The notes under the pieces were generated by a model. The model was not told where the DNA came from, ran no database searches, and saw nothing but the letters and a program-made list of their open reading frames with translations. Shown piece by piece: positions 9,467 through 62,079 of a stretch of 64,000 nt of DNA. The first letter of the stretch is position 1. The number at the start of each line of letters is the position of its first letter. The stretch lies in the IMG/VR virus record IMGVR_UViG_3300028410_000746; one strand, given 5' to 3'. The DNA is from a virus (lineage: Duplodnaviria > Caudoviricetes). The translations under genes were made by a program, and so were the position numbers.

Positions 9467-9961
9467 CTACTCATCGTCAGTCTCCGAGGGGGCATGTTCG
9501 GCACACCGTCGACTGAACCAGCTACCCTCATAGACACCCTCGGCGCCCATCTTACCACAGACCTGACAGGTGACGTGACTCACACGCTCCGCAAGGTCCA
9601 CGTAGTGGTCTACCTTGTTAGGCCCATTCATGGTGTAGAACCGCAGCTCGCCCCACTTCTCCTTGACCTGCATGACCACGAAGCCCTCGAAGGGATCGGT
9701 GGGGTACTGCGCAAAGTAGCGCTCAATCCACTCGCAGTCTGCAAGCTCTCCCACGGTGGTGACCCCTTGTTTGACGAAGAGATCGTCGCGGATGTCACAC
9801 ACCTCCGGCCACCTCTTGGCAGCGTGCGAGATCTGATCCAGCAAGGCCTCCACGAGAGGCTCCCAGCCCTCGGGGACGCTGAAGTCAAACGCATCTTTGA
9901 GAAAGGCATGTTTTGCGAACATGCGCTCCCACCACTTCTTCTCTTCTGAACTGTCACTCAT
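9467..9961 (-). CDS. Conserved phage hypothetical protein (QVKEKWGELRFY...CQVCG family)
   Basis: Family motif as recalled; RBS GGAG; true start MSDSSE, the longer track ORF reads through CRISPR array 1. Confidence 0.65.
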   Translation of the reverse strand: MSDSSEEKKWWERMFAKHAFLKDAFDFSVPEGWEPLVEALLDQISHAAKRWPEVCDIRDDLFVKQGVTTVGELADCEWIERYFAQYPTDPFEGFVVMQVKEKWGELRFYTMNGPNKVDHYVDLAERVSHVTCQVCGKMGAEGVYEGSWFSRRCAEHAPSETDDE

Positions 9962-9978
9962 GGTCAAACTCCAGGGTG

Positions 9979-10068
9979 GGGGACATCCCCGCTCGCGCGG
10001 GGAACACCGCAGGTAGTGGGCCTCGTCGCAGATGATGACCGGAACATCCCCGCTCGCGCGGGGAACAC
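9979..10068 (-). CRISPR. Type I-E mini-array 1 (2 repeats, 1 spacer)
   Basis: 29-nt repeats GTGTTCCCCGCGCGAGCGGGGATGT(T/C)CC(G/C) at 10040-10068 and 9979-10007; 32-nt spacer; AT-richer leader to the right. Confidence 0.9.
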
Positions 10069-10345
10069 TCTTCAAATGTTCAGTATACCTAACTCCTTGA
10101 TTCATAAGAGGAATCCTGTTGGCATAGGGTGCGTCGGTTTACTTTACCAAATCGTACCCTGTGGTACAAGCTCCCAAGAGCGACTAAGCGGACCTTACTA
10201 CAAGCTCTCTCCGGCTGTCAAGAGGTTTGCAGCTCTTTCCACATGCGGTACATGTGGGCGCGGATGCGGTCATAAGAGTCCGTGTCGCCTTTTTGAGCGA
10301 TGCCGCGACCCTGGAGCGTGAGGAACACCTCTCCAAAAGCCTCAT

Positions 10346-10498
10346 GGGGACATCCCCGCGTACACGGGGAAGGGGTCCAGGTCAGGCACACGGGCCGTAC
10401 GGGAGTGGGGACATCCCCGCGTACACGGGGAAGGGTGCTACTAGACTCCGGGGTGCATGGCGGTGCGCAGGGGACATCCCCGCGTACACGGGGAAGGG
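10346..10498 (-). CRISPR. Type I-E-like array 2 (3 repeats, 2 spacers)
   Basis: Repeat CCCTTCCCCGTGTACGCGGGGATGTCCCC at 10346, 10407 and 10470; spacers 32 and 34 nt. The G-U in the stem supports minus-strand transcription. Confidence 0.92.
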
Positions 10499-10640
10499 TC
10501 TGTGCCAAGAAGTCACAGGGTAGGGAACACGTAAGTATTCGGTTTTCAAAGACTTTCAGGGTTCAGTGTCAAAGAGCGTCACCCTTGGGCGACCTCTCCG
10601 ACGTCCTTATGGTAACCACACCTAAGAGGGCCTGTCAAGC
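10499..10640 (-). promoter_or_regulatory. CRISPR leader with sigma70 promoter (leader copy 1)
   Basis: TTGACA-N18-TACCAT; highly similar to 39984-40125 and 44025-44165. Confidence 0.8.
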
Positions 10641-11227: not shown

Positions 11228-11602
11228 TCAACCGGCAGACAGCACCAAGCGCCAGATCGTCCACGCACACAGGAGGTGGTACGTGTTGTCGACGATGATC
11301 ACGGACCACGGCCCCATGTTGTCACGGAACCCCGTCTGACCTGCCTTACCCATCCAGGCGGCGGCGAGACGGTAGCGGTCGACCGGGTAGTGCGTGGCCC
11401 AAATGGCAGCGTAGGCCCACCACGGCCAGACATCCCCCATGACCCAGGTGAAGCAGACAAACATCAACGTATAGAGCGTCACATGCACCAGACACGCTGC
11501 CGTGCCCTCCCAGGTACGTGCGCTCTTGTTCTGCGCCATCCAGTCGTTCTGGTAGACGTAATCACCCACGAGGTGAACCAGAATAAGAGTACCCATATCC
11601 AT
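11228..11602 (-). CDS. DUF3307-like membrane protein
   Basis: HLVGDYVYQNDWMAQNK..H..THYPVD..DNTYH. Confidence 0.75.
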   Translation of the reverse strand: MDMGTLILVHLVGDYVYQNDWMAQNKSARTWEGTAACLVHVTLYTLMFVCFTWVMGDVWPWWAYAAIWATHYPVDRYRLAAAWMGKAGQTGFRDNMGPWSVIIVDNTYHLLCAWTIWRLVLSAG

Positions 11603-11880
11603 TACCGAACCTTCGCTTTGGAGGTCTCAAGCACGTACAGCGCCTGAAACAGTGATGTCCCGCCCGCTGTCTCTGGCCCACCCAGAGGACCGGGGTATAC
11701 CACGTCACCACTCTTCGCGTCCAACACAGCGAAGAAATTCTTCCACTGGATGGGAGATACGGGACCCGGCTTCTTGGGAGTTCCCCACTCGCAACGGTAA
11801 TACGGGGTTCCATCCTGGAGGGTGCCTGCACGCGAGGCTGTGAAGCCGTCGTCGCGATGGAAGGTAAAGGGGTAGACCAT
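11602..11880 (-). CDS. Hypothetical protein
   Basis: Tiles operon. Confidence 0.5.
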   Translation of the reverse strand: MVYPFTFHRDDGFTASRAGTLQDGTPYYRCEWGTPKKPGPVSPIQWKNFFAVLDAKSGDVVYPGPLGGPETAGGTSLFQALYVLETSKAKVR

Positions 11881-11982: not shown

Positions 11983-12011
11983 AGGGACATCCCCGCGCGT
12001 GCGGGGAAGGG
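11983..12011 (-). CRISPR. Solitary type I-E repeat
   Basis: CCCTTCCCCGCACGCGCGGGGATGTCCCT; no second repeat one spacer away on either side. Confidence 0.8.
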
Positions 12012-12060: not shown

Positions 12061-13647
12061 TCACTCCACGGGTCCCAGGATCTCCTGGACGGTACCGAAG
12101 TTGGTGACGAGGAAGCGCACGGGGGCTCCTACCGTGTACCGTTGGAACTCCCCGTAGTCAACGGTGAGGGTCTGCGAGTACGGCGTATCACCCTCCTGGA
12201 ACCCCAGAGTAAGCTCATAACGCGCCGTGCGGCGTTCGCGCTCCAGCGGCCCCAGTGACCCCTTGGGCCAGCGAGCCGGTCTCTTGGTTCCTGCGGAGTT
12301 ATGACGGTCGGAGTCGATCCAGCGTTGCGTGGCGTAGCTGCACCACTGCTGCGGGATGGAGCGCTCGCAGATCTTGTCCACGGTATCGGAGCTGTGAATG
12401 GCCACCTGCTTCGAGCGCGTACACGTGTCAGGCACGCTGTCATAGACCGTACGCGAGCAGGTTGAAGAGACACTACGGGAGCAGTATCTGGGGGAGCAGG
12501 AGCGCGACGCGCTGCCCTTGCTCGTGCGGGACGTAGAGCACGTCTCGCCGCACTGATAGGACTCCGACTTGGAGCATGAATAGCTCTCCTGTCGAGACAC
12601 CTTCTTGGTGCACGAGTAGCTCTCCGTCTCCGTCCTCATGTGCGTACACGACACCTGCTTGGTCCCACACACGTAGTCCTGGTAATGGTGGTGCTTCATG
12701 CGACAGGACTGCACGCGAACTCCCGCGCGCGCGCCTGAGCCGTTGACGGGCTTGACCTCTCTCCGCTCGCTCAGACTCATCTGCCAGTCTTCGTCGACTA
12801 CAGGCGTCCACCGCTGCTCCTGGATCACCCTCTCCCAATGCAGCGACTCCACCTCTCCCGTGACCTCATGGGTCTGGAAGCCCCAAACGGTCGTACCCAG
12901 GACAAGCCCGAGGACACTGATCGCAGCCCCGCCGCCCTTCTGCTTCGGGCTCATGGATGAAAGGCGGGCCAGCTTGGGGACCTTTGGCGGGGAGTCCTCG
13001 GACGGCATACCCGACGTATCCTCGGAGGCCTTCTTGACAGGCTCTTCCTCCTCCAGGAACGCGTTCTCGGAGATCACCGAGCTGGGAAGGTCCTCGTCGC
13101 TCCATTTTGGGCGCGCGACATGACCCTGTGACTGCATCTCTTCTTTGAACGCCGAACGGCCCTTGTTGGCCGCTTCGAGCTGGTCCTCGTGCTTCGCGTC
13201 CGCGTCAAAGGAGAGGCCGTGTGCTGCACGCATACCCGCGAAGGCGCCGAACTGCTCCACGAGGTCCGCTGCGACACCCTGTTCGCCGTCCATGTAGGCC
13301 TGGAATGTACGGTAGTCGAGAGCCTCACGAAGCTGCTCATCCGAAGCACCGCGAGGCGCTGCGCAGTGGTGACACTCCGTCTCATCCCCGTAGTTGTCCC
13401 CCGTGCAGTTCGTACAGAACCAGCTCGCGCCAACGTCTGCGAACCGTGCCGTGTCTTCTTGGGTCCACGCGCGCTCTTCATGACCATGACTGGCCCACGA
13501 CTCGTCATCGCCAGGGAGATACGCCCCATCAAACTCTTCAAAGGTCCGGGCATGCGCGCACTCGGGGCATGTGCGATGGCGAGGACTACACGGGATACCC
13601 ACATGTCCGCAATCCGAACAGTCCCACATCAACCAGTAGTCACTCAT
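12061..13647 (-). CDS. Membrane-anchored protein with N-terminal Zn ribbons and a Cys-rich C-terminal domain
   Basis: WDCSDC/CPEC/WFCTNC..CHHC; one TM segment; Cys-rich tract. Confidence 0.7.
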   Translation of the reverse strand: MSDYWLMWDCSDCGHVGIPCSPRHRTCPECAHARTFEEFDGAYLPGDDESWASHGHEERAWTQEDTARFADVGASWFCTNCTGDNYGDETECHHCAAPRGASDEQLREALDYRTFQAYMDGEQGVAADLVEQFGAFAGMRAAHGLSFDADAKHEDQLEAANKGRSAFKEEMQSQGHVARPKWSDEDLPSSVISENAFLEEEEPVKKASEDTSGMPSEDSPPKVPKLARLSSMSPKQKGGGAAISVLGLVLGTTVWGFQTHEVTGEVESLHWERVIQEQRWTPVVDEDWQMSLSERREVKPVNGSGARAGVRVQSCRMKHHHYQDYVCGTKQVSCTHMRTETESYSCTKKVSRQESYSCSKSESYQCGETCSTSRTSKGSASRSCSPRYCSRSVSSTCSRTVYDSVPDTCTRSKQVAIHSSDTVDKICERSIPQQWCSYATQRWIDSDRHNSAGTKRPARWPKGSLGPLERERRTARYELTLGFQEGDTPYSQTLTVDYGEFQRYTVGAPVRFLVTNFGTVQEILGPVE

Positions 13648-15594: not shown

Positions 15595-16301
15595 GATTCA
15601 CCCTTCGTCGACGCCCAGACGCCCCGACCCACCTTGGAGGCCTCACCCTCTTTCTCCAGCTCTCGGAGGATTCGACTCACGGAGCTGGAGACGTTCTTGT
15701 AGAGGGTGGCGTAGTGGGGTGCCTCCTTGGCCAGCTTCAAGGGCTTGACCTCTCCAGCCTCCAGGCTCGCGCGCACCCACGCACGCGTGAGCTTGTAGTG
15801 GGTGCAGTACGTATGGGCCCCGCTTGGATAACCCGCGAGCTGGTCACGGTTCTGCTCACACAACAAGAGCTTGTGCCGGTTGCGATGCTTCTTGGCATCG
15901 TCCAGACGCTCCGCTGCAACATGCTCCACGAAGTCCTTCGTCTCCGTGTCAAAGCTCATGAGGCCGTGCTTACTCCAGCGTCCGCCCTTGAACGCCGCCA
16001 CCCACTTGGCCACGGTCGCTTCTCGCGGGGTAGCCATCGTGAACCCCCACACCTCATCGGCCACGTGGTAGATGTCGAGCTTCCACACCTGGCGTCTAAG
16101 CGTCTTATCTGACCCACGCTTCATCTCGATCGCCACCACGTACTCGGGAGCGTCACAGGGCCCCGTATGCCCCACGTGGTCCACGAAGATTGATTTGCCA
16201 AACATCGCAACCTCCCCGTGCACGCATAACCCGCGCGCACGCAGGTGCGCGACCACGTACGGGGACAGCTCCAGCTCTGTTTTGGGACTCTCTTTACTCA
16301 T
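15591..16301 (-). CDS. PD-(D/E)xK-like nuclease-fold protein
   Basis: ELEL..EV..VDHV..VAIEMK motif order. Confidence 0.5.
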   Translation of the reverse strand: MSKESPKTELELSPYVVAHLRARGLCVHGEVAMFGKSIFVDHVGHTGPCDAPEYVVAIEMKRGSDKTLRRQVWKLDIYHVADEVWGFTMATPREATVAKWVAAFKGGRWSKHGLMSFDTETKDFVEHVAAERLDDAKKHRNRHKLLLCEQNRDQLAGYPSGAHTYCTHYKLTRAWVRASLEAGEVKPLKLAKEAPHYATLYKNVSSSVSRILRELEKEGEASKVGRGVWASTKGES

Positions 16302-19741: not shown

Positions 19742-19814
19742 TAGTCACGATGGGACTCGAACCCATACACGGGGATTTAGAATCCCCTGCTCTAACCCGT
19801 TGAGCTACACGACT
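19742..19814 (-). tRNA. tRNA-Sup(CUA), amber suppressor, copy 1
   Basis: Cloverleaf; anticodon arm GGGGA-TT CTA AA-TCCCC; A73; no encoded CCA. Confidence 0.9.
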
Positions 19815-37948: not shown

Positions 37949-38240
37949 GAAGCGCGCTCTTGAGCTTGAGCCGGTCCGCGTACCACAGGACACGGACGTC
38001 TCCGATCACGCTCTCCAGCCTATGAGACTTGCAGTGCTCAGGTAACCCTACCTGAGCCCGCGTGATCGAGTGACGCTCAGAGTCTGAAAGCCGATAGAGG
38101 CCTCCCGAAGTCTCACCCTGAGCTGCGAGGGCGTCCCGAACATACGAGAGCCTTGAGAGCACCAGATCCTCAAGAGAGGTAAACGCACATTCGAGCTGCG
38201 GCCCGTGCGGACCTTCCCTACGCAACACCCAGACCTTCAC
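37941..38240 (-). CDS. Hypothetical protein
   Basis: RBS GGAG. Confidence 0.45.
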   Translation of the reverse strand: MKVWVLRREGPHGPQLECAFTSLEDLVLSRLSYVRDALAAQGETSGGLYRLSDSERHSITRAQVGLPEHCKSHRLESVIGDVRVLWYADRLKLKSALLT

Positions 38241-38388
38241 TCCAGACCTCCGCCCTCATGCCACCGACCACACCGCACGCATATTTGATAGTACCGTACA
38301 GGGTGACGTGAGCCCGAACGTACAAGCGGCCTCATGCCAAAGGGCACCCACCAATGGAAGCCCAGACGACATCTCCAGGGTACCTTCG

Positions 38389-38769
38389 TCACGATGAATT
38401 TCCTCGCGCAGCCAAGTCCGCCTGCATTTGAGCGTGCTCAACGCGAACCTTCTGGACCGCTTCAGGCACATCGGTGGGGGGCACCTCACCGGGTGCATTC
38501 GGCAACAGGTACCACTGAGTGGCGTCATCCTGGGGAACCGAAGAGAACCCCCAAAACGATCCATGTCCGTCAGGCACGGCAGGGACATACCACCCCAAGC
38601 TTCCCCCTTCCTCCAGAGGAACACTCGAAGGCAAGAGATCACGCCCTACCTCATCATGCACGCACGCAACGCACCTGAGCATGTCATCTACCAAAAACAC
38701 GGCGGACTTTCGGTAGAGCTTACAGTCACATGCTCCACATAGACCGCACCGATACGGGTATTCACTCAC
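38389..38769 (-). CDS. Hypothetical Zn-binding protein
   Basis: CGLCGACDC..CVAC. Confidence 0.5.
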   Translation of the reverse strand: MSEYPYRCGLCGACDCKLYRKSAVFLVDDMLRCVACVHDEVGRDLLPSSVPLEEGGSLGWYVPAVPDGHGSFWGFSSVPQDDATQWYLLPNAPGEVPPTDVPEAVQKVRVEHAQMQADLAARGNSS

Positions 38770-38989
38770 TGTCAGTCTCCTCTAGATGCTTTTGAACTTC
38801 TGCCAACGTGGACGGAGCACGGCCCGTGTCCTCCATGTTGATCTCGTCAAGAGACGTCACCGTGCTCCCCAGGAGACGAGCGATCTCTTCCCACGTCACG
38901 GTGTGACCCTCGACCAGGAGGCGCCCGGTGTCGCCATCATAGACCGCCTCCCAATCGCCACTCTCCGCACACACGCGCACGAGGTTCAT
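38762..38989 (-). CDS. Hypothetical protein
   Basis: Tiles operon. Confidence 0.5.
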   Translation of the reverse strand: MNLVRVCAESGDWEAVYDGDTGRLLVEGHTVTWEEIARLLGSTVTSLDEINMEDTGRAPSTLAEVQKHLEETDSE

Positions 38990-39192
38990 AGGACCCCCTC
39001 TTGGTTACGGGTATAGGCCCCGTGTGCGAAGTACGAGGCCACCAGCAGCACGAGGCTACAAGGAATCAGCAGAATCAAACCTGCGGTGACCTCATCAATG
39101 AAGTAGTCAAGGCGGTGAAACGTTACAGCCTTGGATACCTCACCTGCACCCGAAAAGACCTGCTGGATATAGCCCACGGCGCGAACGCACAC
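38986..39192 (-). CDS. Small membrane protein
   Basis: One TM helix. Confidence 0.4.
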   Translation of the reverse strand: MCVRAVGYIQQVFSGAGEVSKAVTFHRLDYFIDEVTAGLILLIPCSLVLLVASYFAHGAYTRNQEGVL

Positions 39193-39466
39193 AGGTTATT
39201 GAGGAAAGGTTGCCCACGACGTGGGGGCTCAAAACCGCGAATCATACACCACCCTCGGACTGGACAGACTCCCACAGCGCCACACTTAGCACCGCAGGAG
39301 CTGCCATGCCCATGTAACATACCATAGACATCGCACCCCCGACAAGCGAGATGCCCATGGAGACGACATCTGAATACGGCCGAGGGAGGGGGCGCGATAC
39401 ACGCTCCGAGATGTGACCCGCCACCGTGCTTACGAGCTGACTCGGAAGGGGCGCCACGTGTGTCAA

Positions 39467-39983
39467 GGGGACATCCCCGCGTGTGCGGGGAGGGGTTGAC
39501 CGAGCACTGCTTCAGGTTGTCGATGTGGGGGACATCCCCGCGTACACGGGGAGGGGAAAACTTCTCCTGGGGGGTCTCTGCGGGCGCGGGGGACATCCCC
39601 GCGTGTGCGGGGAGGGGTTCCATCACTGCGCAGGAGCCGATGGCGGCGACGGGACATCCCCGCGTGTGCGGGGAGGGGTGCGCGACACAAGTCGTACATA
39701 AGCTCATTGCGGGGACATCCCCGCGTGTGCGGGGAGGGGTGACTCCGAGACCTCCGAGAGTGAGTCGCCGAGGGGACATCCCCGCGTGTGCGGGGAGGGG
39801 AAGCACGTCCGCGTCGGGCTGGTCAAAGCCAAGGGGACATCCCCGCGTGTGCGGGGAGGGGCCCGTCGTCTGGACCGCCGCTGACCTTATGGAGGGGACA
39901 TCCCCGCGTGTGCGGGGAGGGGAACTCATGGCGAGATGGTCTCCCAGGTCATACGGGGACATCCCCGCGTGTGCGGGGAGGGG
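39467..39983 (-). CRISPR. Type I-E-like array 3 (9 repeats, 8 spacers)
   Basis: 29-nt repeat CCCCTCCCCGCACACGCGGGGATGTCCCC every 61 nt (39467, 39528, 39589, 39650, 39711, 39772, 39833, 39894, 39955); all spacers 32 nt. Confidence 0.97.
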
Positions 39984-40125
39984 TCTGTGCCAAGAAGTCA
40001 CATGCGTTAGATCGCGTAAGTATTCGGTTTTCAAAGACTTTCAGGGTTCAGTGTCAAAGAGCGTCACTCTTGGGCGACCCTCTTGACGTCCTTACGGTAA
40101 CCTTGGTGAGGGAGACATGTCAAGC
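39984..40125 (-). promoter_or_regulatory. CRISPR leader with promoter (leader copy 2)
   Basis: TTGACA-N18-TACCGT; homologous to 10499-10640. Confidence 0.8.
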
Positions 40126-40190
40126 TGTATTTGACACGACGGTATCCAGTACGCTATTAACAGGGCACACCGTAACCAAGAGGCACCCCT

Positions 40191-40982
40191 ATGAGCACAC
40201 GTGAAGGTCTCCGAGCCAAGCTCTCCACACTCCCCCTGAAGCTCAAGCCCTACGCAGAGGTTGACCTCGAACGGGACTGCAAGCTCATGACGGGCTCCGG
40301 CTGGATGTTCGAGATGATGTCTCGCATGGAGAACGCGATGTGGGGGAGGTGGGGCTACTGGCTCAACGCATGGGCGACCATGCAGCCTCCGACCGAGGCC
40401 ATCCCTCAGATCGAATTCGAGAACGCGCCCAACCCCTTCGTGCTCAAGATGCTCGACCACACCCTTGAGTGCTGCACCCAGGGACGCATCCACCGCTACC
40501 GCGCCATGGAGTGGCTGGTGGACTGGATCAGGTGGTCACTGGGAGGGCTCAAGGACAAGCCCGAGAACCCGGTCCCGGAGATCCCGAGCGACGTGATCGC
40601 CTATCAGGTGTTCCAGCTCGACCCCATGGTCCTCTACCCCTACGACTACTTCGGGCACTGGTACGCGGAAGCCGGGCACGGGAAGAATGGAGCTGCGTTT
40701 TACCCTACCCCAATGGGCCTCACCAACCTCATGGAGCGTATCCTCTACGGAAATGACCCCCTCCCCACATCCTCCTCCGCATGTGACCCCGCCGTGGGCA
40801 CAGGAAGGACCCTCCTGGCGGCCAGCAACAGCTCCTTACGCCTCTACGGTCAGGACATCGACGCGCGCGTCCTCGCCTGTCTGGAGGTCAATTTCGCGCT
40901 CTACGCCCCGTGGGGCTATCGACCTCTGCCAGACGCCGTGTGGACCGCTCACTCCTCCTCGAAAATGACCTCCTCTCCATAG
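40191..40982 (+). CDS. N6-DNA-methylase-like SAM-binding protein
   Basis: FYPTP..CDPAVGTGRTLL..LYGQDID; no NPPY/DPPY motif seen; promoter TTGACA-N18-TATTAA. Confidence 0.7.
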   Translation: MSTREGLRAKLSTLPLKLKPYAEVDLERDCKLMTGSGWMFEMMSRMENAMWGRWGYWLNAWATMQPPTEAIPQIEFENAPNPFVLKMLDHTLECCTQGRIHRYRAMEWLVDWIRWSLGGLKDKPENPVPEIPSDVIAYQVFQLDPMVLYPYDYFGHWYAEAGHGKNGAAFYPTPMGLTNLMERILYGNDPLPTSSSACDPAVGTGRTLLAASNSSLRLYGQDIDARVLACLEVNFALYAPWGYRPLPDAVWTAHSSSKMTSSP

Positions 40983-42789: not shown

Positions 42790-42863
42790 TGCGCCGAGTG
42801 GGGCTCGAACCCACAACACGGGGATTTAGAATCCCCTGCTCTAACCCGTTGAGCTATCGGCGC
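42790..42863 (-). tRNA. tRNA-Sup(CUA), amber suppressor, copy 2
   Basis: Perfect 7-bp acceptor GCGCCGA/TCGGCGC; same D and anticodon arms as copy 1; A73. Confidence 0.92.
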
Positions 42864-43170: not shown

Positions 43171-43422
43171 TCACTCTTCTTCCGAGGAGTCGTGTTCGGG
43201 ACGGGCGGCGGAAAACGCGTTCAGGAAACGCTCCCGTCGCGCCGCACCCTCGGAGGGCTTCCCGAGCTGAGCTTGGAGGTACGGGATAATAGCCGAAGAG
43301 GCGGCGGGACGGCCTGACCCCCTTGAGAGTGCCTCCAGGATTTGATTGCTGCGCGAGGTACGCCCCACGGAGCCGTTATCTTCATTCGACACGGGGACCT
43401 CCACGTTCATCCAAGGCATCAC
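43171..43422 (-). CDS. Hypothetical protein
   Basis: Tiles operon. Confidence 0.4.
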   Translation of the reverse strand: MMPWMNVEVPVSNEDNGSVGRTSRSNQILEALSRGSGRPAASSAIIPYLQAQLGKPSEGAARRERFLNAFSAARPEHDSSEEE

Positions 43423-43930
43423 GGCCCTTCTGAGTAAGGGTCATCGTCGGGCCGCTCAACTTCACCTGCTCCCAGGTCGCCAACTCGCCTATGGCATAGC
43501 TCAAGGGCTTGAGATCCGGGGCGGCCACGCGAGCCTGAGCCGAATCCATCACAAGCACGTGCCAACGCTCCCCCGTCTTGTCTACGAGACGACACAAGCT
43601 CTTCGCATCCAGGGCTCCGTGTATCCACAGGAGCGACAAGATCGTGAGATGCACATCTTCCAGGGGATAGGTCACCACACTCAGATCACCCTCTCCCGCA
43701 GGGTCACTTGGATCACGAGGGGGAGGCGGCTCAAACTCCGTGAGAGCGCCCTCCTGGGATGTAAGACCCCATTTACGACGCAACGACACCCGCGTGTCCC
43801 GTATCAGGCGGCCTATTCGCACCGTCTTGACGTACTTCCAGCAGGTGATGCTCCAGATGAGCACAAGCAACACGAACACGCTCACGAGAGCATACGATAC
43901 CCACAGAGCGGACGATTCCCACCCCATCAC
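43382..43930 (-). CDS. Membrane protein with a possible C-terminal winged helix
   Basis: N-terminal TM helix; RBS GGAGG. Confidence 0.55.
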   Translation of the reverse strand: MMGWESSALWVSYALVSVFVLLVLIWSITCWKYVKTVRIGRLIRDTRVSLRRKWGLTSQEGALTEFEPPPPRDPSDPAGEGDLSVVTYPLEDVHLTILSLLWIHGALDAKSLCRLVDKTGERWHVLVMDSAQARVAAPDLKPLSYAIGELATWEQVKLSGPTMTLTQKGRDALDERGGPRVE

Positions 43931-43995: not shown

Positions 43996-44024
43996 CGGAA
44001 CATCCCCGCGTGTGCGGGGAAGGG
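43996..44024 (-). CRISPR. Solitary type I-E repeat with a full leader
   Basis: CCCTTCCCCGCACACGCGGGGATGTTCCG; no neighbouring repeat. Confidence 0.85.
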
Positions 44025-44165
44025 TCTGTGCCAAGAAGTCACATGAGCGGAATCACGTAAGTACTCAGTTTTCAAAGACTTCTCAGGTTCAGCGCCGTTC
44101 GGTGTCACCCTTGGGCGACCCTCTTGACGTCCGTATGGTAACCCTGAGGAGGGAAACCTGTCAAC
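44025..44165 (-). promoter_or_regulatory. CRISPR leader with promoter (leader copy 3)
   Basis: TTGACA-N18-TACCAT; homologous to the other two leaders. Confidence 0.8.
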
Positions 44166-44377: not shown

Positions 44378-44462
44378 GGTGTCGGGAAGGAGTCGAACCT
44401 TCATACCTCCGAAGAGGAACTGGGCCACACGGAGGCGAGCCTGCCAATGCTCAACCGGACGC
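44378..44462 (-). ncRNA. Tyr-like tRNA paralog C (loop GT GTG GC); its own acceptor and anticodon stems do not pair
   Basis: D arm, long variable arm and T arm intact; halves complement paralog B. Confidence 0.6.
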
Positions 44463-44467
44463 CCAAA

Positions 44468-44551
44468 TGCGCCGGGTAGGAGTCGAACCTACAGGTCTCC
44501 GAAGAGAACCCTCGCTACAACCAGCCGAGCTTACCAATGCTCAACCGACAC
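44468..44551 (-). ncRNA. Tyr-like tRNA paralog B (loop TT GTA GC); its own anticodon stem does not pair
   Basis: D arm, long variable arm and T arm intact; halves complement paralog C. Confidence 0.65.
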
Positions 44552-44555
44552 GCAA

Positions 44556-44636
44556 TGCGTTGGGCAGGACTCGAACCTGCACGCCCGAAGGACCGGGGCT
44601 ACAACCCGGCGAGCCAGCCAATTGCTCAACCAACGC
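44556..44636 (-). tRNA. tRNA-Tyr(GUA)
   Basis: Complete type II cloverleaf, A73. Confidence 0.9.
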
Positions 44637-58322: not shown

Positions 58323-58633
58323 TGCGCAAACCATGGGTGTGCCGTGACTCCCCGACCGCCGCAGTCGTCACATGGAGGATGAGAATAGAGAACCCCCTCG
58401 CCGCCACACGCGCCACACTCAAGGTCGTAGAGGACCCCTTGGTAGTCACACCTCGCGCAGCCGTCCGGATCTTCCCCGTCTCCTTCCCCTCCGCAGGCCG
58501 GACACGGAATCTCTTCCAGGAAGCCATCCCCCCGACAGACCTCGCACTCGGTCTCCAGGAGGAGATCCTTTCGGACCCCCTCCATCATACAGACCTCGCA
58601 CTCGACGAGCATTGTGGGAGGCATGGGACTCAT
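58319..58633 (-). CDS. DnaJ-type CxxCxGxG Zn-finger protein
   Basis: Multiple CxxCxGxG repeats. Confidence 0.7.
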   Translation of the reverse strand: MSPMPPTMLVECEVCMMEGVRKDLLLETECEVCRGDGFLEEIPCPACGGEGDGEDPDGCARCDYQGVLYDLECGACGGEGVLYSHPPCDDCGGRGVTAHPWFAQ

Positions 58634-61600
58634 ACAGACGGCTCCTGGACGAAGGGCTCGGTCACCGGGAGAGCCTTGGTCCAGTCACGAAGAACGTCTC
58701 GGAACACCAGCGGCGGAATCTGCTCCACGCGGTCCACCGGGTAGAACGTCATTTCGCTGAGCACCAGGGCGTCCACGTCACGCAGGTCCTTGGTACACTG
58801 CGAGGGCATGATGACCTCACGGATGCCCGCGCGATGCGCGGCGATGACCTTCTCCTTGATGCCGCCGACCGGGAGCACCTGACCCGTGAGCGTAATCTCA
58901 CCGGTCATGGCCACCTCTCGGCGCAGCTTGAGCCCCGCGAAGCGAGAGAGCAAGGCGCTGAACATCGTGATGCCTGCGGAGGGACCATCCTTGGGGATGG
59001 CGCCAGCCGGCACGTGGATGTGAAGGTCGTGCGACTTGATCATGTTGGTGTCTACTCCATACAGATCGCCATGCGCACGCAGGTAGCTCAGGGCAGCCCG
59101 GACAGACTCCTTCATGACGTCTCCGAGCTGGCCCGTCAGCGTCACCTCACCCTTACCCCCTTTCATCGCCTGCACCTCAATGAAGAGGATGTCTCCACCT
59201 ACCGCCGTCCAGGCCAAGCCCGTTGCCACGCCCTCCTGATCCTCACGCTGCGACACCTCCGAGATGTACCGAACGGGACCCAGCGCCTTCTCGACCCGCC
59301 CCATGTCCAGGGGGAACACCGCACCGAGACGCTCAGCCTCCGGAAGCTTGACGACATCCACAGCGATAGAGCGGCACAGGTCTCCCAGCCTACGGTTCAG
59401 GCTACGGACGCCCGCCTCACGGGTGTACTTGTCCACCACGTGGTGGACCACCCCATCCGCGACCTCGATCTGGTCGGGCCCCAGACCGTGGGCGGCTACC
59501 TGCTTGGGGAAGAGATAGCGAGTCGCGATCTCATTCTTCTCGAACATCGTGTAGCTGGGGACCTCCAGGATCTCCATACGGTCACGCAGCGGAGCCGAGA
59601 TCGTATCCAACCGGTTGGCCGTGGCGATGAAGAGGACCTTGGACAGGTCAAGGTCTATCTCCAGGTAGTGGTCGTTGAACGTCGAGTTCTGAGCCGGATC
59701 AAGAACCTCCAGGAACGCGGCGGCGGGGTCGCCTCGGAAGTCCGAGCCCACCTTGTCGATCTCGTCCAGGAGGATGACCGGGTTCATCGTGCCGGCCTTC
59801 TGAAGCGCTCGAACGATGCGGCCCGGCATGGCGCCCACATAGGTACGACGGTGACCACGGATCTCGGACTCGTCGTGCATACCTCCAAGGGAGATGCGCG
59901 CGAACTTGCGGCCCATCGTCCGGGCAATGGACTTGGCGATGGACGTGTTATGCGTCACAATCACGTCATCAGTGATGTAAAGAGAATCAGGAGCAGAGAC
60001 CTTGATGCACTGAGTCTCCTTGACACCTACCGCTACGATATCAGAGATGAACCTCTTGGGAGCGTACTTACTCTTGGAGACCCACCGCTGAGCTTTGGCG
60101 TCACACCAGAAGGGACACTGACCCGCCGACATTGAGACCGTCACGTTGTACGCCAGACGACCCGAACGCCTCTCCCCATCAACCGTATATGACGGCTTTT
60201 TCATCGTCACCCGTGTCACCCCCCCAAGCGACCGGACCAACCACTGCACGTCATCACACAATCGCGTCGACGTCGTACAAAAAGAAACCCTACAACCCGT
60301 CGCGTCTACAGTACCGCCAGTGTCCATCAAGCCCTGCAAAAGAGCGAGCCTCTGCTCTACCGAGCCGTAAAGGTACACATAAGGTACATGCTTTTCGTAC
60401 GAGTAGAGCCCCGTAAGTTCCAGAGCATCCAGCTCCACCTGCAACGCGTCCCGTACAGACCCCTTTCGCCCTGCGGTCAAACGATAGTCACAGGTCTCCG
60501 ACGCTTGCTTGCGCATCCGAACCTCCCCCGGCAAGGCGGCAGCTACGCGTGCGCAAATATCACCCTCTGGGTTTGAAAAACCAACGGAAGCTCCCGTAAG
60601 GCCTCCATCTCCCAAGAGCGCCCCCAAGAGGTACGGGTCAAGGGGTACGGACTTTTCCGCAAACTCCAAGGGCTGGGTCAGAGGGATAGAATGGTTGCGG
60701 CGAGCGTCCGAGCCGTACCGAAGCGTCTCTCGGATTTGCTCCAGAGACTTCACCGACCCCTCACGGGAAGCCTTCCGATCGAGGTCGGTATGCGTGTACC
60801 ACAAGTGCTCGTCGCAACACTCTGTTGATGAGCCGTCTTGAAACTCCACACGATACACCGGCCGCGTGCCTTGAGGGAACGCGCCCTCCACGTGATGAAC
60901 GCCCCCGTCCGCACCCATGACCGCATCACCTACCGCAAGCGTACCCATCGCAACCCAACCCTTCGGGGTCAACACCCGCGCATCCAAAGGCTGCGCCTTG
61001 CCCACACCGGGAGGGCCCACGAAGCACAGGATCGGGCCGTTCATGTCCTGCTTGAGCGCCTGAACAGCCAGATGCTCGACCACCCTTCGCTTCACCTTCT
61101 CCAGGCCGTAGTGGTCCGCGTCGAGCACATCCTCCGCGCGGACGACATCCAGGTTGTCCTCGCTCTCGACGCCCCACGGCACATCGAGCATCTGCTGGAT
61201 GTAGTTGAGCGTCACCGAATACTCGGAGCTGGCCGGCTGCATCGCGTCGAGTCGACGATGCTGCTTCAGGACCGCAGCCTCCACCTCCTCAGGCATGTCT
61301 GCCTCCTGAATACGCTCAAGCAGCTCCTCCGTCTCGGAGATGTCCTCACCGAGCTGGTCCTTGATGACCTTGAGCTGCTGGCGAAGGATGTACTCACGCT
61401 GAATAGACTTGCTGCGCTCCTGGAGCGACTGGTTGATCTCACCCGCCAGCTCCTGGCGCGCGATACGCTCCCCCAGGATGCGCAGACACCGAGACGCGCG
61501 CTCCGTGATGTTCGGCTCCAGGTAGAGAGCCAACAGGTCCTCATCCTCGAAGCGGGGCGCGAGCATGTCTGTAAGGTCTGAGAGGGAGCCCACAGCACGC

Positions 61601-62079
61601 ACGCGCTCGAACTCCTGCTCGGGAGCGTCCGGATCGTCTCCCAGGACCTGAAGCGTCTTCTCCTGAAGCGCCTCGAACAGCGCTTCATTGTACTCCGCCT
61701 CCTTGTCGAACTCCGGTCCAATGACCTCGAAGTGACCCATCAACGGCGCGGAGGCATCCTCCGGAATCTCAAGATCCAGGAGCCTCAGCCTCACCTCCCC
61801 GGAAGAAATGACCGTATAGTCGTTCGCGTTCGGGTTCGGGATGATCTTGATGCAGGACACCAGGGTCGCGATCTCGTGGACCTCATCCATCGAGGACAGC
61901 GTGAGCACGTCCGGAGACTTCTGAAGCACGACCGCGATCTTGAAAGGCGCCGGCGAGTCTGCACCCTCAATGACCGCCAGGGAGCGTGCTCGACCGACCC
62001 GAACAGGGATCATCTGTAGCGGGAAAAGAGGGTTCTCGCGCATGGCGATCACGGGAAGGTACAGGGTGTCAGCGCTCAT
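58630..62079 (-). CDS. lon: ATP-dependent Lon protease containing an intein
   Basis: LON N-domain, GPPGVGK|T, LLDEIDK, DGPSAG catalytic Ser, IGGIKEK-type VGGIKEK. Confidence 0.97.
59947..60996 (-). mobile_element. Class-3 intein (350 aa) with a LAGLIDADG domain in the Lon P-loop
   Basis: Starts AQPLD, ends VTHN before Thr+1; WCT signature (HLW, TQC, VTHN). Confidence 0.92.

What the first reader, a model, noticed from the sequence alone, without database searches (positions are those of the whole stretch)
39467..39983. Uniform 8-spacer phage array without cas genes
Repeats are nearly invariant and all spacers are 32 nt, which suggests recent activity. Several spacers read as coding sequence (HIDNLKQCSV, YDLGDHLAMS, PVVWTAADLM). 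I noticed no target in this window but could not search exhaustively. Likely use is inter-phage competition through host Cascade-Cas3; host-gene targeting is the alternative.
Basis: partly seen in the sequence, partly recalled or inferred. Interest (0 to 1): 0.62.

Follow-up and report, generated by a model that had tools for sequence, protein, structure and literature searches.

The report
Huge-phage type I-E CRISPR array
This is a real eight-spacer type I-E CRISPR array in a roughly 373-kb lake-water phage genome, one of several copies of the same promoter-leader-array unit, which is a known kind of feature in huge phages; what it targets is still unknown.

Summary
There are nine 29-nt repeats at 39467-39983 with a 61-nt period and eight 32-nt spacers.

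The repeat has the type I-E shape when read on the minus strand: a 7-bp stem, a 4-nt loop and an AUGUCCCC handle. The guide RNAs are therefore minus-strand, and the leader lies at 39984-40124.

The window is part of a circular genome of about 373.36 kb (ENA ERZ27315555, contig k141_181878). It looks like a phage: a baseplate J protein, giant fibre-like proteins, replication genes, many tRNAs and many genes without relatives.

The array is not alone. In the 132.7 kb I could read, the same ~140-nt leader occurs four times. It starts exactly at a TTGACA-N18-TACCRT promoter-like site. It heads arrays of 6, 2 and 8 spacers and one single repeat. A further mini-array and a further single repeat are also present.

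I found no core cas gene in those 132.7 kb. Earlier follow-ups in this scan report the phage's own type I-E Cascade-Cas3 about 64-74 kb upstream.

I found no spacer target and no sign of recent spacer gain. This is a new member of a known kind, and this scan has already noted it on the same genome.

The parts
39467..39983 (-). Array D, the finding: 9 repeats of 29 nt and 8 spacers of 32 nt. The minus-strand repeat is CCCCTCCCCGCACACGCGGGGATGTCCCC. The leader-proximal repeat is at 39955-39983.
   Evidence: The hairpin is shown.
39984..40124 (-). Leader of array D. Candidate -35 TTGACA at 40123-40118, an 18-nt spacer, candidate -10 TACCGT at 40099-40094, and an invariant junction TGTGACTTCTTGGCACAGA next to the first repeat.
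   Evidence: Four copies are 81-89% identical, and similarity starts exactly at TTGACA. The stricter sigma-70 scan did not call a promoter here.
10346..10498 (-). Array B: 3 repeats of the GTACAC loop variant and 2 spacers (32 and 34 nt).
10499..10640 (-). Leader copy heading array B.
9979..10068 (-). Mini-array A: 2 repeats and 1 spacer. Its minus-strand repeat GTGTTCCCCGCGCGAGCGGGGATGTCCCC has the canonical type I-E look. It has a different, AT-rich flank and lies just upstream of a gene that probably starts at 9961.
11983..12011 (-). Single repeat without a leader, in the 180-nt gap between two minus-strand genes and in the sense orientation.
   Evidence: and the gene table.
43996..44024 (-). 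Single repeat directly behind a leader copy, about 65 nt upstream of the minus-strand gene 43382-43930.
44025..44164 (-). Leader copy heading the single repeat at 43996.

Best explanation
Array D is a genuine type I-E CRISPR array carried by a circular huge-phage genome of about 373 kb. It is one of at least four copies of a unit made of a promoter, a ~140-nt leader and repeats.

Inferred mechanism: the array is transcribed on the minus strand from the conserved TTGACA-N18-TACCRT site about 100 nt upstream of the first repeat. A Cas6e-type nuclease then cuts the transcript at the base of each repeat hairpin. This yields 61-nt guides with an AUGUCCCC 5' handle.

The guides would load into a type I-E Cascade that recruits Cas3 to destroy matching DNA, most likely rival phages or other mobile elements in the same cell. 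Earlier follow-ups in this scan report that the phage encodes this Cascade-Cas3 itself, about 64-74 kb upstream, and lacks cas1 and cas2. I take that as the more likely supplier, but I did not see those genes. New spacers would then need a host Cas1-Cas2 or recombination between arrays.

Shown here: the array, its type, its strand, the copies of the unit, the phage context, and the absence of cas genes nearby. Inferred: transcription, processing, which Cascade is used, and the kind of target.
For: Array geometry and statistics.

Type and strand: every repeat variant folds to the same 7-bp stem and 4-nt loop at positions 5-22, followed by an 8-nt tail. The repeats align array-to-array with type I-E arrays on Streptomyces plasmids. 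Array A aligns with Salmonella and E. coli arrays. Five genomes carrying near-identical repeats all encode Cse2.

Leader: four copies are conserved from the -35 site to the repeat and unrelated upstream of it.

Further arrays: all lie on the same strand.

Phage context: the ENA contig of 373,477 bp has ends that overlap by about 118 nt, and the window runs across that junction. Baseplate_J hit, E = 1.2e-16. Proteins of 1,157-1,474 aa, DnaB with an intein, a primase and PolA. Fifteen tRNAs in the window.

Size: huge-phage arrays are reported as compact, with a median of six repeats, and almost all phage systems lack Cas1, Cas2 and Cas4 (PMC7162821).
Against: I did not see any cas gene. There is none among 94 window ORFs or among 72 called genes in the flanks. 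The reported cas locus lies beyond the last stretch I could fetch.

No protospacer was found for any spacer.

The promoter is only a consensus-like match. Its -10 element agrees with TATAAT at 3 of 6 positions, and the scan tool did not call it.

There are no RNA data. Rfam has no matching repeat family.
Confidence: 0.6

Rival explanations
1. One reading: the phage has no effector of its own, and the arrays are processed and used by the host's type I-E Cas6e, Cascade and Cas3 to exclude rival phages, as virus-borne mini-arrays do.
For: There is no cas gene in 132.7 kb around the array. The repeats are very close to cellular type I-E repeats: 27 of 29 to Streptomyces sedi, and one repeat of array A is identical to that of a Pseudoclavibacter MAG. 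Al-Shayeb et al. state that phage arrays may use host Cas proteins (PMC7162821). Mini-arrays that exploit host CRISPR are established (PMC6858448 and PMC11656645).
Against: Several earlier follow-ups in this scan report a full Cascade-Cas3 operon in this genome. I have not checked that. The host is unknown, so repeat identity with its arrays cannot be tested. Eight spacers and many arrays are more than the one or two spacers typical of cas-less viral mini-arrays. No spacer matched a related phage.
Confidence: 0.2
2. The repeats act mainly as RNA elements rather than as immunity guides. They could be Cas6e cutting sites that shape phage mRNAs, or decoy repeat RNAs that tie up a host type I-E complex in the manner of single-repeat RNA anti-CRISPRs. 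Array D would be the largest example.
For: Single repeats lie in the sense orientation in an intergenic gap (11983) and in what would be a 5' UTR behind a leader promoter (43996). Mini-array A abuts the ribosome-binding site of a gene. [quoted passage not shown]
Against: Array D has eight different 32-nt spacers of exact type I-E length, which a decoy or a cutting site does not need. Spacer GC of 0.60 matches the genome-like GC expected of captured DNA. There are no RNA data either way.
Confidence: 0.08
3. The array is an inert relic captured from a host or another phage and no longer used.
For: No adaptation genes were seen and no targets were found. Arrays A and B are unchanged in a second sample. 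One internal repeat has three changes.
Against: Seven of nine repeats are identical, and the variant keeps the hairpin. The leader is conserved in four copies exactly from the -35 site to the repeat, while the flanks are unrelated. This points to selection on a working unit.
Confidence: 0.07

Closest known systems
CRISPR arrays and CRISPR-Cas systems of huge phages (Al-Shayeb et al. 2020, PMC7162821)
   Same: A phage genome over 200 kb. Compact arrays: 9, 7, 3 and 2 repeats here, against a reported median of six. No Cas1, Cas2 or Cas4 seen. The proposed use is against competing phages, with host Cas or the phage's own Cas as supplier.
   Different: The text I read names type II and V systems and a type I-C variant in phages, and the search term 'type I-E' has no occurrence in it. 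Here one conserved promoter-leader unit is copied to at least four places, including one copy that carries only a single repeat.
Canonical type I-E arrays of bacteria (E. coli K-12; Streptomyces and other Actinomycetota)
   Same: A 29-nt repeat, 32-nt spacers, a 61-nt period, a 7-bp GC stem with a 4-nt loop, an 8-nt 5' handle, and a leader with a promoter on one side. The repeat matches the Streptomyces sedi repeat at 27 of 29 positions.
   Different: There are no adjacent cas genes. The first four repeat bases are CCCC or CCCT rather than GTGT or CTGC in most copies. Several short arrays are scattered through a phage genome instead of one or two long arrays beside the cas operon.
Virus-borne cas-less mini-CRISPR arrays (Medvedeva et al. 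2019, PMC6858448; review PMC11656645)
   Same: An array in a viral genome with no cas gene nearby. The expected role is exclusion of related viruses.
   Different: Those arrays hold one or two spacers, their repeats are identical to the host's, and their spacers demonstrably hit related viruses. Here there are eight spacers, the host is unknown and no target was found.
Vibrio phage ICP1 type I-F CRISPR-Cas (Seed et al. 2013, as cited in PMC7162821 and PMC11656645)
   Same: A phage that uses CRISPR guides of its own against another genetic element in the infected cell.
   Different: ICP1 carries a complete system, with adaptation genes, next to its arrays. It is type I-F and its target (PLE) is known.
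Saccharomonospora phage PIS 136 (JX006077.1), four-repeat array
   Same: A cultured actinophage with a type I-E-shaped repeat (61-nt period, a CCCCGCG...CGGGG stem). It was the only phage record in INPHARED that aligned with array D.
   Different: It is a 95-kb phage with one 3-spacer array, repeats about 76% identical to array D, and no shared leader. I did not look for cas genes in that record.

Membership tests
CRISPR array, type I-E repeat class | Direct repeats of about 29 nt separated by unique spacers of constant length of about 32 nt | tested here: met
   Nine repeats and eight 32-nt spacers with a 61-nt period. Shuffles gave 0 matches.
CRISPR array, type I-E repeat class | The repeat folds to a GC-rich 7-bp stem with a tetraloop, followed by an 8-nt tail that becomes the 5' handle | tested here: met
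   All six variants tested fold as ....(((((((....)))))))....... at -12 to -15 kcal/mol. The comparison with the E. coli repeat rests on my own knowledge.
CRISPR array, type I-E repeat class | Repeat sequence shared with arrays that sit in genomes carrying type I-E cas genes | tested here: met
   Repeats with 0-2 differences occur in Pseudoclavibacter, Streptomyces sedi and Corynebacterium vitaeruminis. Those genomes encode Cse2 above the Pfam cut-off.
CRISPR array, type I-E repeat class | A leader with a promoter at one end of the array | tested here: inconclusive
   A ~140-nt leader is conserved in four copies and starts at TTGACA-N18-TACCRT. The sigma-70 scan called nothing, and there are no RNA data.
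CRISPR array, type I-E repeat class | Type I-E cas genes in the same genome | tested here: inconclusive
   None in the 132.7 kb I read. Earlier notes place them at about record 296-306 kb. My walk ended at 309,442. Indirect searches for the fused Cas8e-Cas11 failed.
CRISPR array, type I-E repeat class | Spacers match foreign DNA next to a consistent PAM | tested here: not met
   No protospacer in the 132.7 kb of this genome, in INPHARED phages, in PLSDB plasmids, in IMG/VR (3 spacers only) or in 401 genomes of the order of G001 (the Pseudoclavibacter MAG). The searches were partial.
Huge-phage CRISPR systems without an adaptation module (Al-Shayeb 2020) | A phage genome over 200 kb | tested here: met
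   A 373,477-bp contig with overlapping ends. Baseplate_J hit, replication genes and 15 tRNAs.
Huge-phage CRISPR systems without an adaptation module (Al-Shayeb 2020) | Compact arrays and no cas1, cas2 or cas4 | tested here: met
   Arrays of 9, 7, 3 and 2 repeats. No Cas1, Cas2 or Cas4 hit in the parts scanned. About 240 kb of the genome was not seen.
Cas-less virus-borne mini-array that exploits host Cas (Medvedeva 2019) | Repeats identical to those of the host's own arrays | not testable with these tools
   The host is unknown. No exact match to the main repeat was found in one genome per species.
Cas-less virus-borne mini-array that exploits host Cas (Medvedeva 2019) | One or two spacers that target related viruses | tested here: not met
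   There are eight spacers. None matches the one 72%-related contig I obtained or any phage record searched.

The most novel reading that the evidence does not exclude
The phage has turned a type I-E promoter-leader-repeat unit into a general-purpose module. Some copies carry guides for immunity. Others carry a single repeat or sit in front of genes, so that a Cas6e-type nuclease would cut phage mRNAs and tie phage gene expression to the CRISPR machinery. The single-repeat copies might also serve as empty landing sites that borrow a host Cas1-Cas2 for spacer capture.
Probability: 0.12. Interest if true: 0.65.

Novelty: new member of a known kind. Interest (0 to 1): 0.35.

Why it matters
Phage-borne CRISPR arrays show how viruses fight each other and their hosts inside a cell. 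This example adds a type I-E case from a lake-water huge phage.

More usefully, it shows that the unit being copied around the genome runs exactly from a promoter to the first repeat. That boundary gives a clean handle for testing how arrays without nearby cas genes are expressed and how they gain spacers.

By itself the eight-spacer array is ordinary for huge phages. Its value depends on two open points: confirming the cas locus, and finding what the spacers hit.

Tried and rejected
1. Exact repeat scans gave 0 hits in viral contigs and genome contigs. The leader junction gave 0 hits in viral contigs.

2. My one metagenome scan used too loose a pattern and returned only chance matches in coding DNA.

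3. A search for relatives with the Lon protease hit only its intein. PolA gave nothing. The neighbouring gene 40191-40982 found one 72% relative with no array and no shared gene order.

4. I walked upstream with all 12 encoding-contig look-ups and reached record 309,442. Three look-ups were lost to wrong gene starts or genes cut at the contig end. That is about 1 kb short of the stretch where earlier notes place arrays and cas genes.

5. Indirect hunts for the phage's reported Cas8e-Cas11 fusion failed.
   - A Cse2 profile against longer proteins found nothing.
   - An exhaustive Cse2 profile search found one 773-aa fused protein. It lies on a 3.9-kb Logan contig, and its relatives are actinobacterial Cse1 proteins, some fused with Cse2, none on a 373-kb contig.
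   - A search restricted to its Cse2 part returned only the query itself.

6. A tblastn of an actinobacterial Cas7e against phage records hit only bacterial contaminants.

8. Rfam has no match to the repeat.

9. I looked for degenerate older repeats to the left of 39467 and found none: at most 12 of 29 positions agree.

10. I considered and rejected a host-chromosome origin and a chance tandem repeat.

Full report
**Observation.** The region 39467-39983 holds nine 29-nt direct repeats at a strict 61-nt period and eight 32-nt spacers.
- Seven repeats are identical.
- The repeat at 39650 differs at one terminal base.
- The repeat at 39528 has three changes.
- With up to three mismatches allowed, the repeat occurs 11 times in the window, against none in 100 shuffles.

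This is uninformative in a 60% GC genome. The phage's spacers have on average 4.4 of 6 frames open, against 4.65 for random 32-mers of the same genome. The long ORFs across the array lack the GC3 bias of real genes here.

**Type and strand.** The reverse complement of the repeat is CCCCTCCCCGCACACGCGGGGATGTCCCC.
- Every variant in the window folds to the same 7-bp stem and 4-nt loop at positions 5-22, with an 8-nt tail.
- The three-change variant keeps the stem through a G-U pair.
- From my own knowledge, this is the geometry of type I-E repeats.
- Independent support: array D aligns repeat-for-repeat with arrays on 76 plasmids, 52 of them from Streptomyces. Array A aligns with Salmonella and E. 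coli arrays.
The closest repeats are 27 of 29 (Streptomyces sedi) and 29 of 29 for one repeat of array A (a Pseudoclavibacter MAG).
- The five such genomes that I tested all encode Cse2.

The guide RNAs are therefore minus-strand, and the leader lies to the right of 39983.

**A repeated unit, not a lone array.** A looser search found more repeats, all on the same strand:
- a two-repeat mini-array at 9979-10068;
- a three-repeat array at 10346-10498;
- single repeats at 11983 and 43996;
- a seven-repeat array about 8.7-9.0 kb before the window start.

The ~140 nt to the right of array D recur at 81-89% identity next to the arrays at 10346 and -9029 and next to the single repeat at 43996.

Aligned in guide orientation, the four copies become similar exactly at a TTGACA. 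They stay similar through an 18-nt spacer, then TACCAT (TACCGT in array D), then an invariant block, and end in TGTGACTTCTTGGCACAGA abutting the first repeat. Upstream of TTGACA they are unrelated.

This looks like a duplicated promoter-leader-repeat module. However, the promoter is only consensus-like, and the scan tool did not call it.

**Genome context.**
- The window is identical, apart from one base, to ENA ERZ27315555 contig k141_181878 (373,477 bp).
- The window runs across that contig's two ends, which overlap by about 118 nt. The genome is therefore circular or terminally redundant, at about 373.36 kb.
- The window has 15 tRNA genes, including two with a CUA anticodon, and mostly genes without relatives.
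- Upstream I found a Baseplate_J protein, proteins of 1,157-1,474 aa, a two-component system, DnaB with an intein, a primase, PolA and PhoH.

This is a huge phage, not a host chromosome.

**Cas genes.** No core Cas family was hit among 94 window ORFs (PADLOC and Pfam). None was hit among 72 called genes covering 60.6 kb upstream and 8 kb downstream (plus the Pfam columns).

Earlier follow-ups of this scan state that the same genome encodes a rearranged type I-E Cascade plus Cas3, without cas1 or cas2. Their distances place it at about record 296.1-305.9 kb, with arrays reaching to about 308.4 kb. Three indirect routes failed.

I therefore treat the phage's own effector as a well-attested lead that I did not verify. 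In passing, those searches showed that Cse1-Cse2 fusions of 743-787 aa exist in Actinokineospora, Nocardia and Streptomyces.

**Targets and activity.** None of 11 spacers matches anything else in the 132.7 kb I hold. No spacer hit appeared in:
- INPHARED phages;
- PLSDB plasmids, at least among the rows shown;
- IMG/VR, for the three leader-proximal spacers with every sixth base left free;
- 401 genomes of the order of the Pseudoclavibacter MAG.

Spacer GC (0.60 for array D) equals the genome GC.

A JGI contig from another sample is 99.94% identical over 6.8 kb and carries arrays A and B with the same spacers. I have no evidence of recent spacer gain. The claim of 'recent activity' is unsupported, because uniform length is simply what type I-E integration produces.

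**Comparison with what is known.** Al-Shayeb et al. (PMC7162821) report the following for huge phages. [quoted passage not shown] Many lack effectors and may use host Cas proteins. Arrays are compact, with a median of six repeats. Some spacers target other phages.

Array D fits the huge-phage category and is a new member of it. The copied promoter-leader module and the single-repeat copies are the less ordinary part. This scan had already noted them on the same genome.

**Verdict.** The array is real, and it is type I-E. It is phage-borne and part of a dispersed set. Its mechanism is inferred by homology, its targets are unknown, and the supplier of Cascade was not verified here.

Noticed in passing
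window 43996-44164 and 43382-43930: A full leader copy with its promoter-like site heads only one repeat. About 65 nt further on, a minus-strand gene for a 182-aa membrane-like protein begins. The repeat would therefore sit in that gene's 5' UTR.
   Followed up: partly
window 11983-12011: A single repeat without a leader lies in the sense orientation in the 180-nt gap between two minus-strand genes (12061-13647 and 11602-11880). It could be a Cas6e cutting site inside an operon transcript.
   Followed up: no
window 9467-10105: The public gene call of 212 aa swallows mini-array A (9979-10068). A start at ATG 9961, with GGAG upstream, gives 164 aa and puts the array directly against the ribosome-binding site.
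   Followed up: partly
L198 11120-11560 (about 8.6-9.0 kb before the window start): A seven-repeat array with the same leader mixes at least three repeat variants out of order. This suggests exchange between arrays rather than simple growth at the leader end.
   Followed up: partly
window 58630-62079: A Lon protease of 1,149 aa is interrupted by an intein with a LAGLIDADG domain (about residues 350-720). The upstream DnaB-like helicase also carries an intein.
   Followed up: no
window 19742-19814 and 42790-42863: Two tRNA genes with a CUA anticodon (amber suppressor type), among 15 tRNAs in the window.
   Followed up: no
window 44383-44631: A tandem repeat of 2.8 copies with a 90-nt period overlaps tRNA-like sequence next to tRNA-Asn and tRNA-Tyr.
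   Followed up: no
L204 1430-1650 (JX006077.1, about 15,675-15,895): Saccharomonospora phage PIS 136, a cultured 95-kb actinophage, carries an unannotated four-repeat array of type I-E shape with a 61-nt period, partly under a gene annotated 'hypothetical protein'.
   Followed up: partly
window 38000-40190: About 2.2 kb around the array shows no clear coding signal by GC3. The gene 40191-40982, with a weak N6 methylase-like hit, diverges from the leader.
   Followed up: partly
P0181, P0255, P0265: Cse1 and Cse2 fused in one protein of 743-787 aa occur in Actinokineospora, Nocardia brasiliensis and Streptomyces genomes. A Cas8e-Cas11 fusion is therefore not peculiar to this phage.
   Followed up: no
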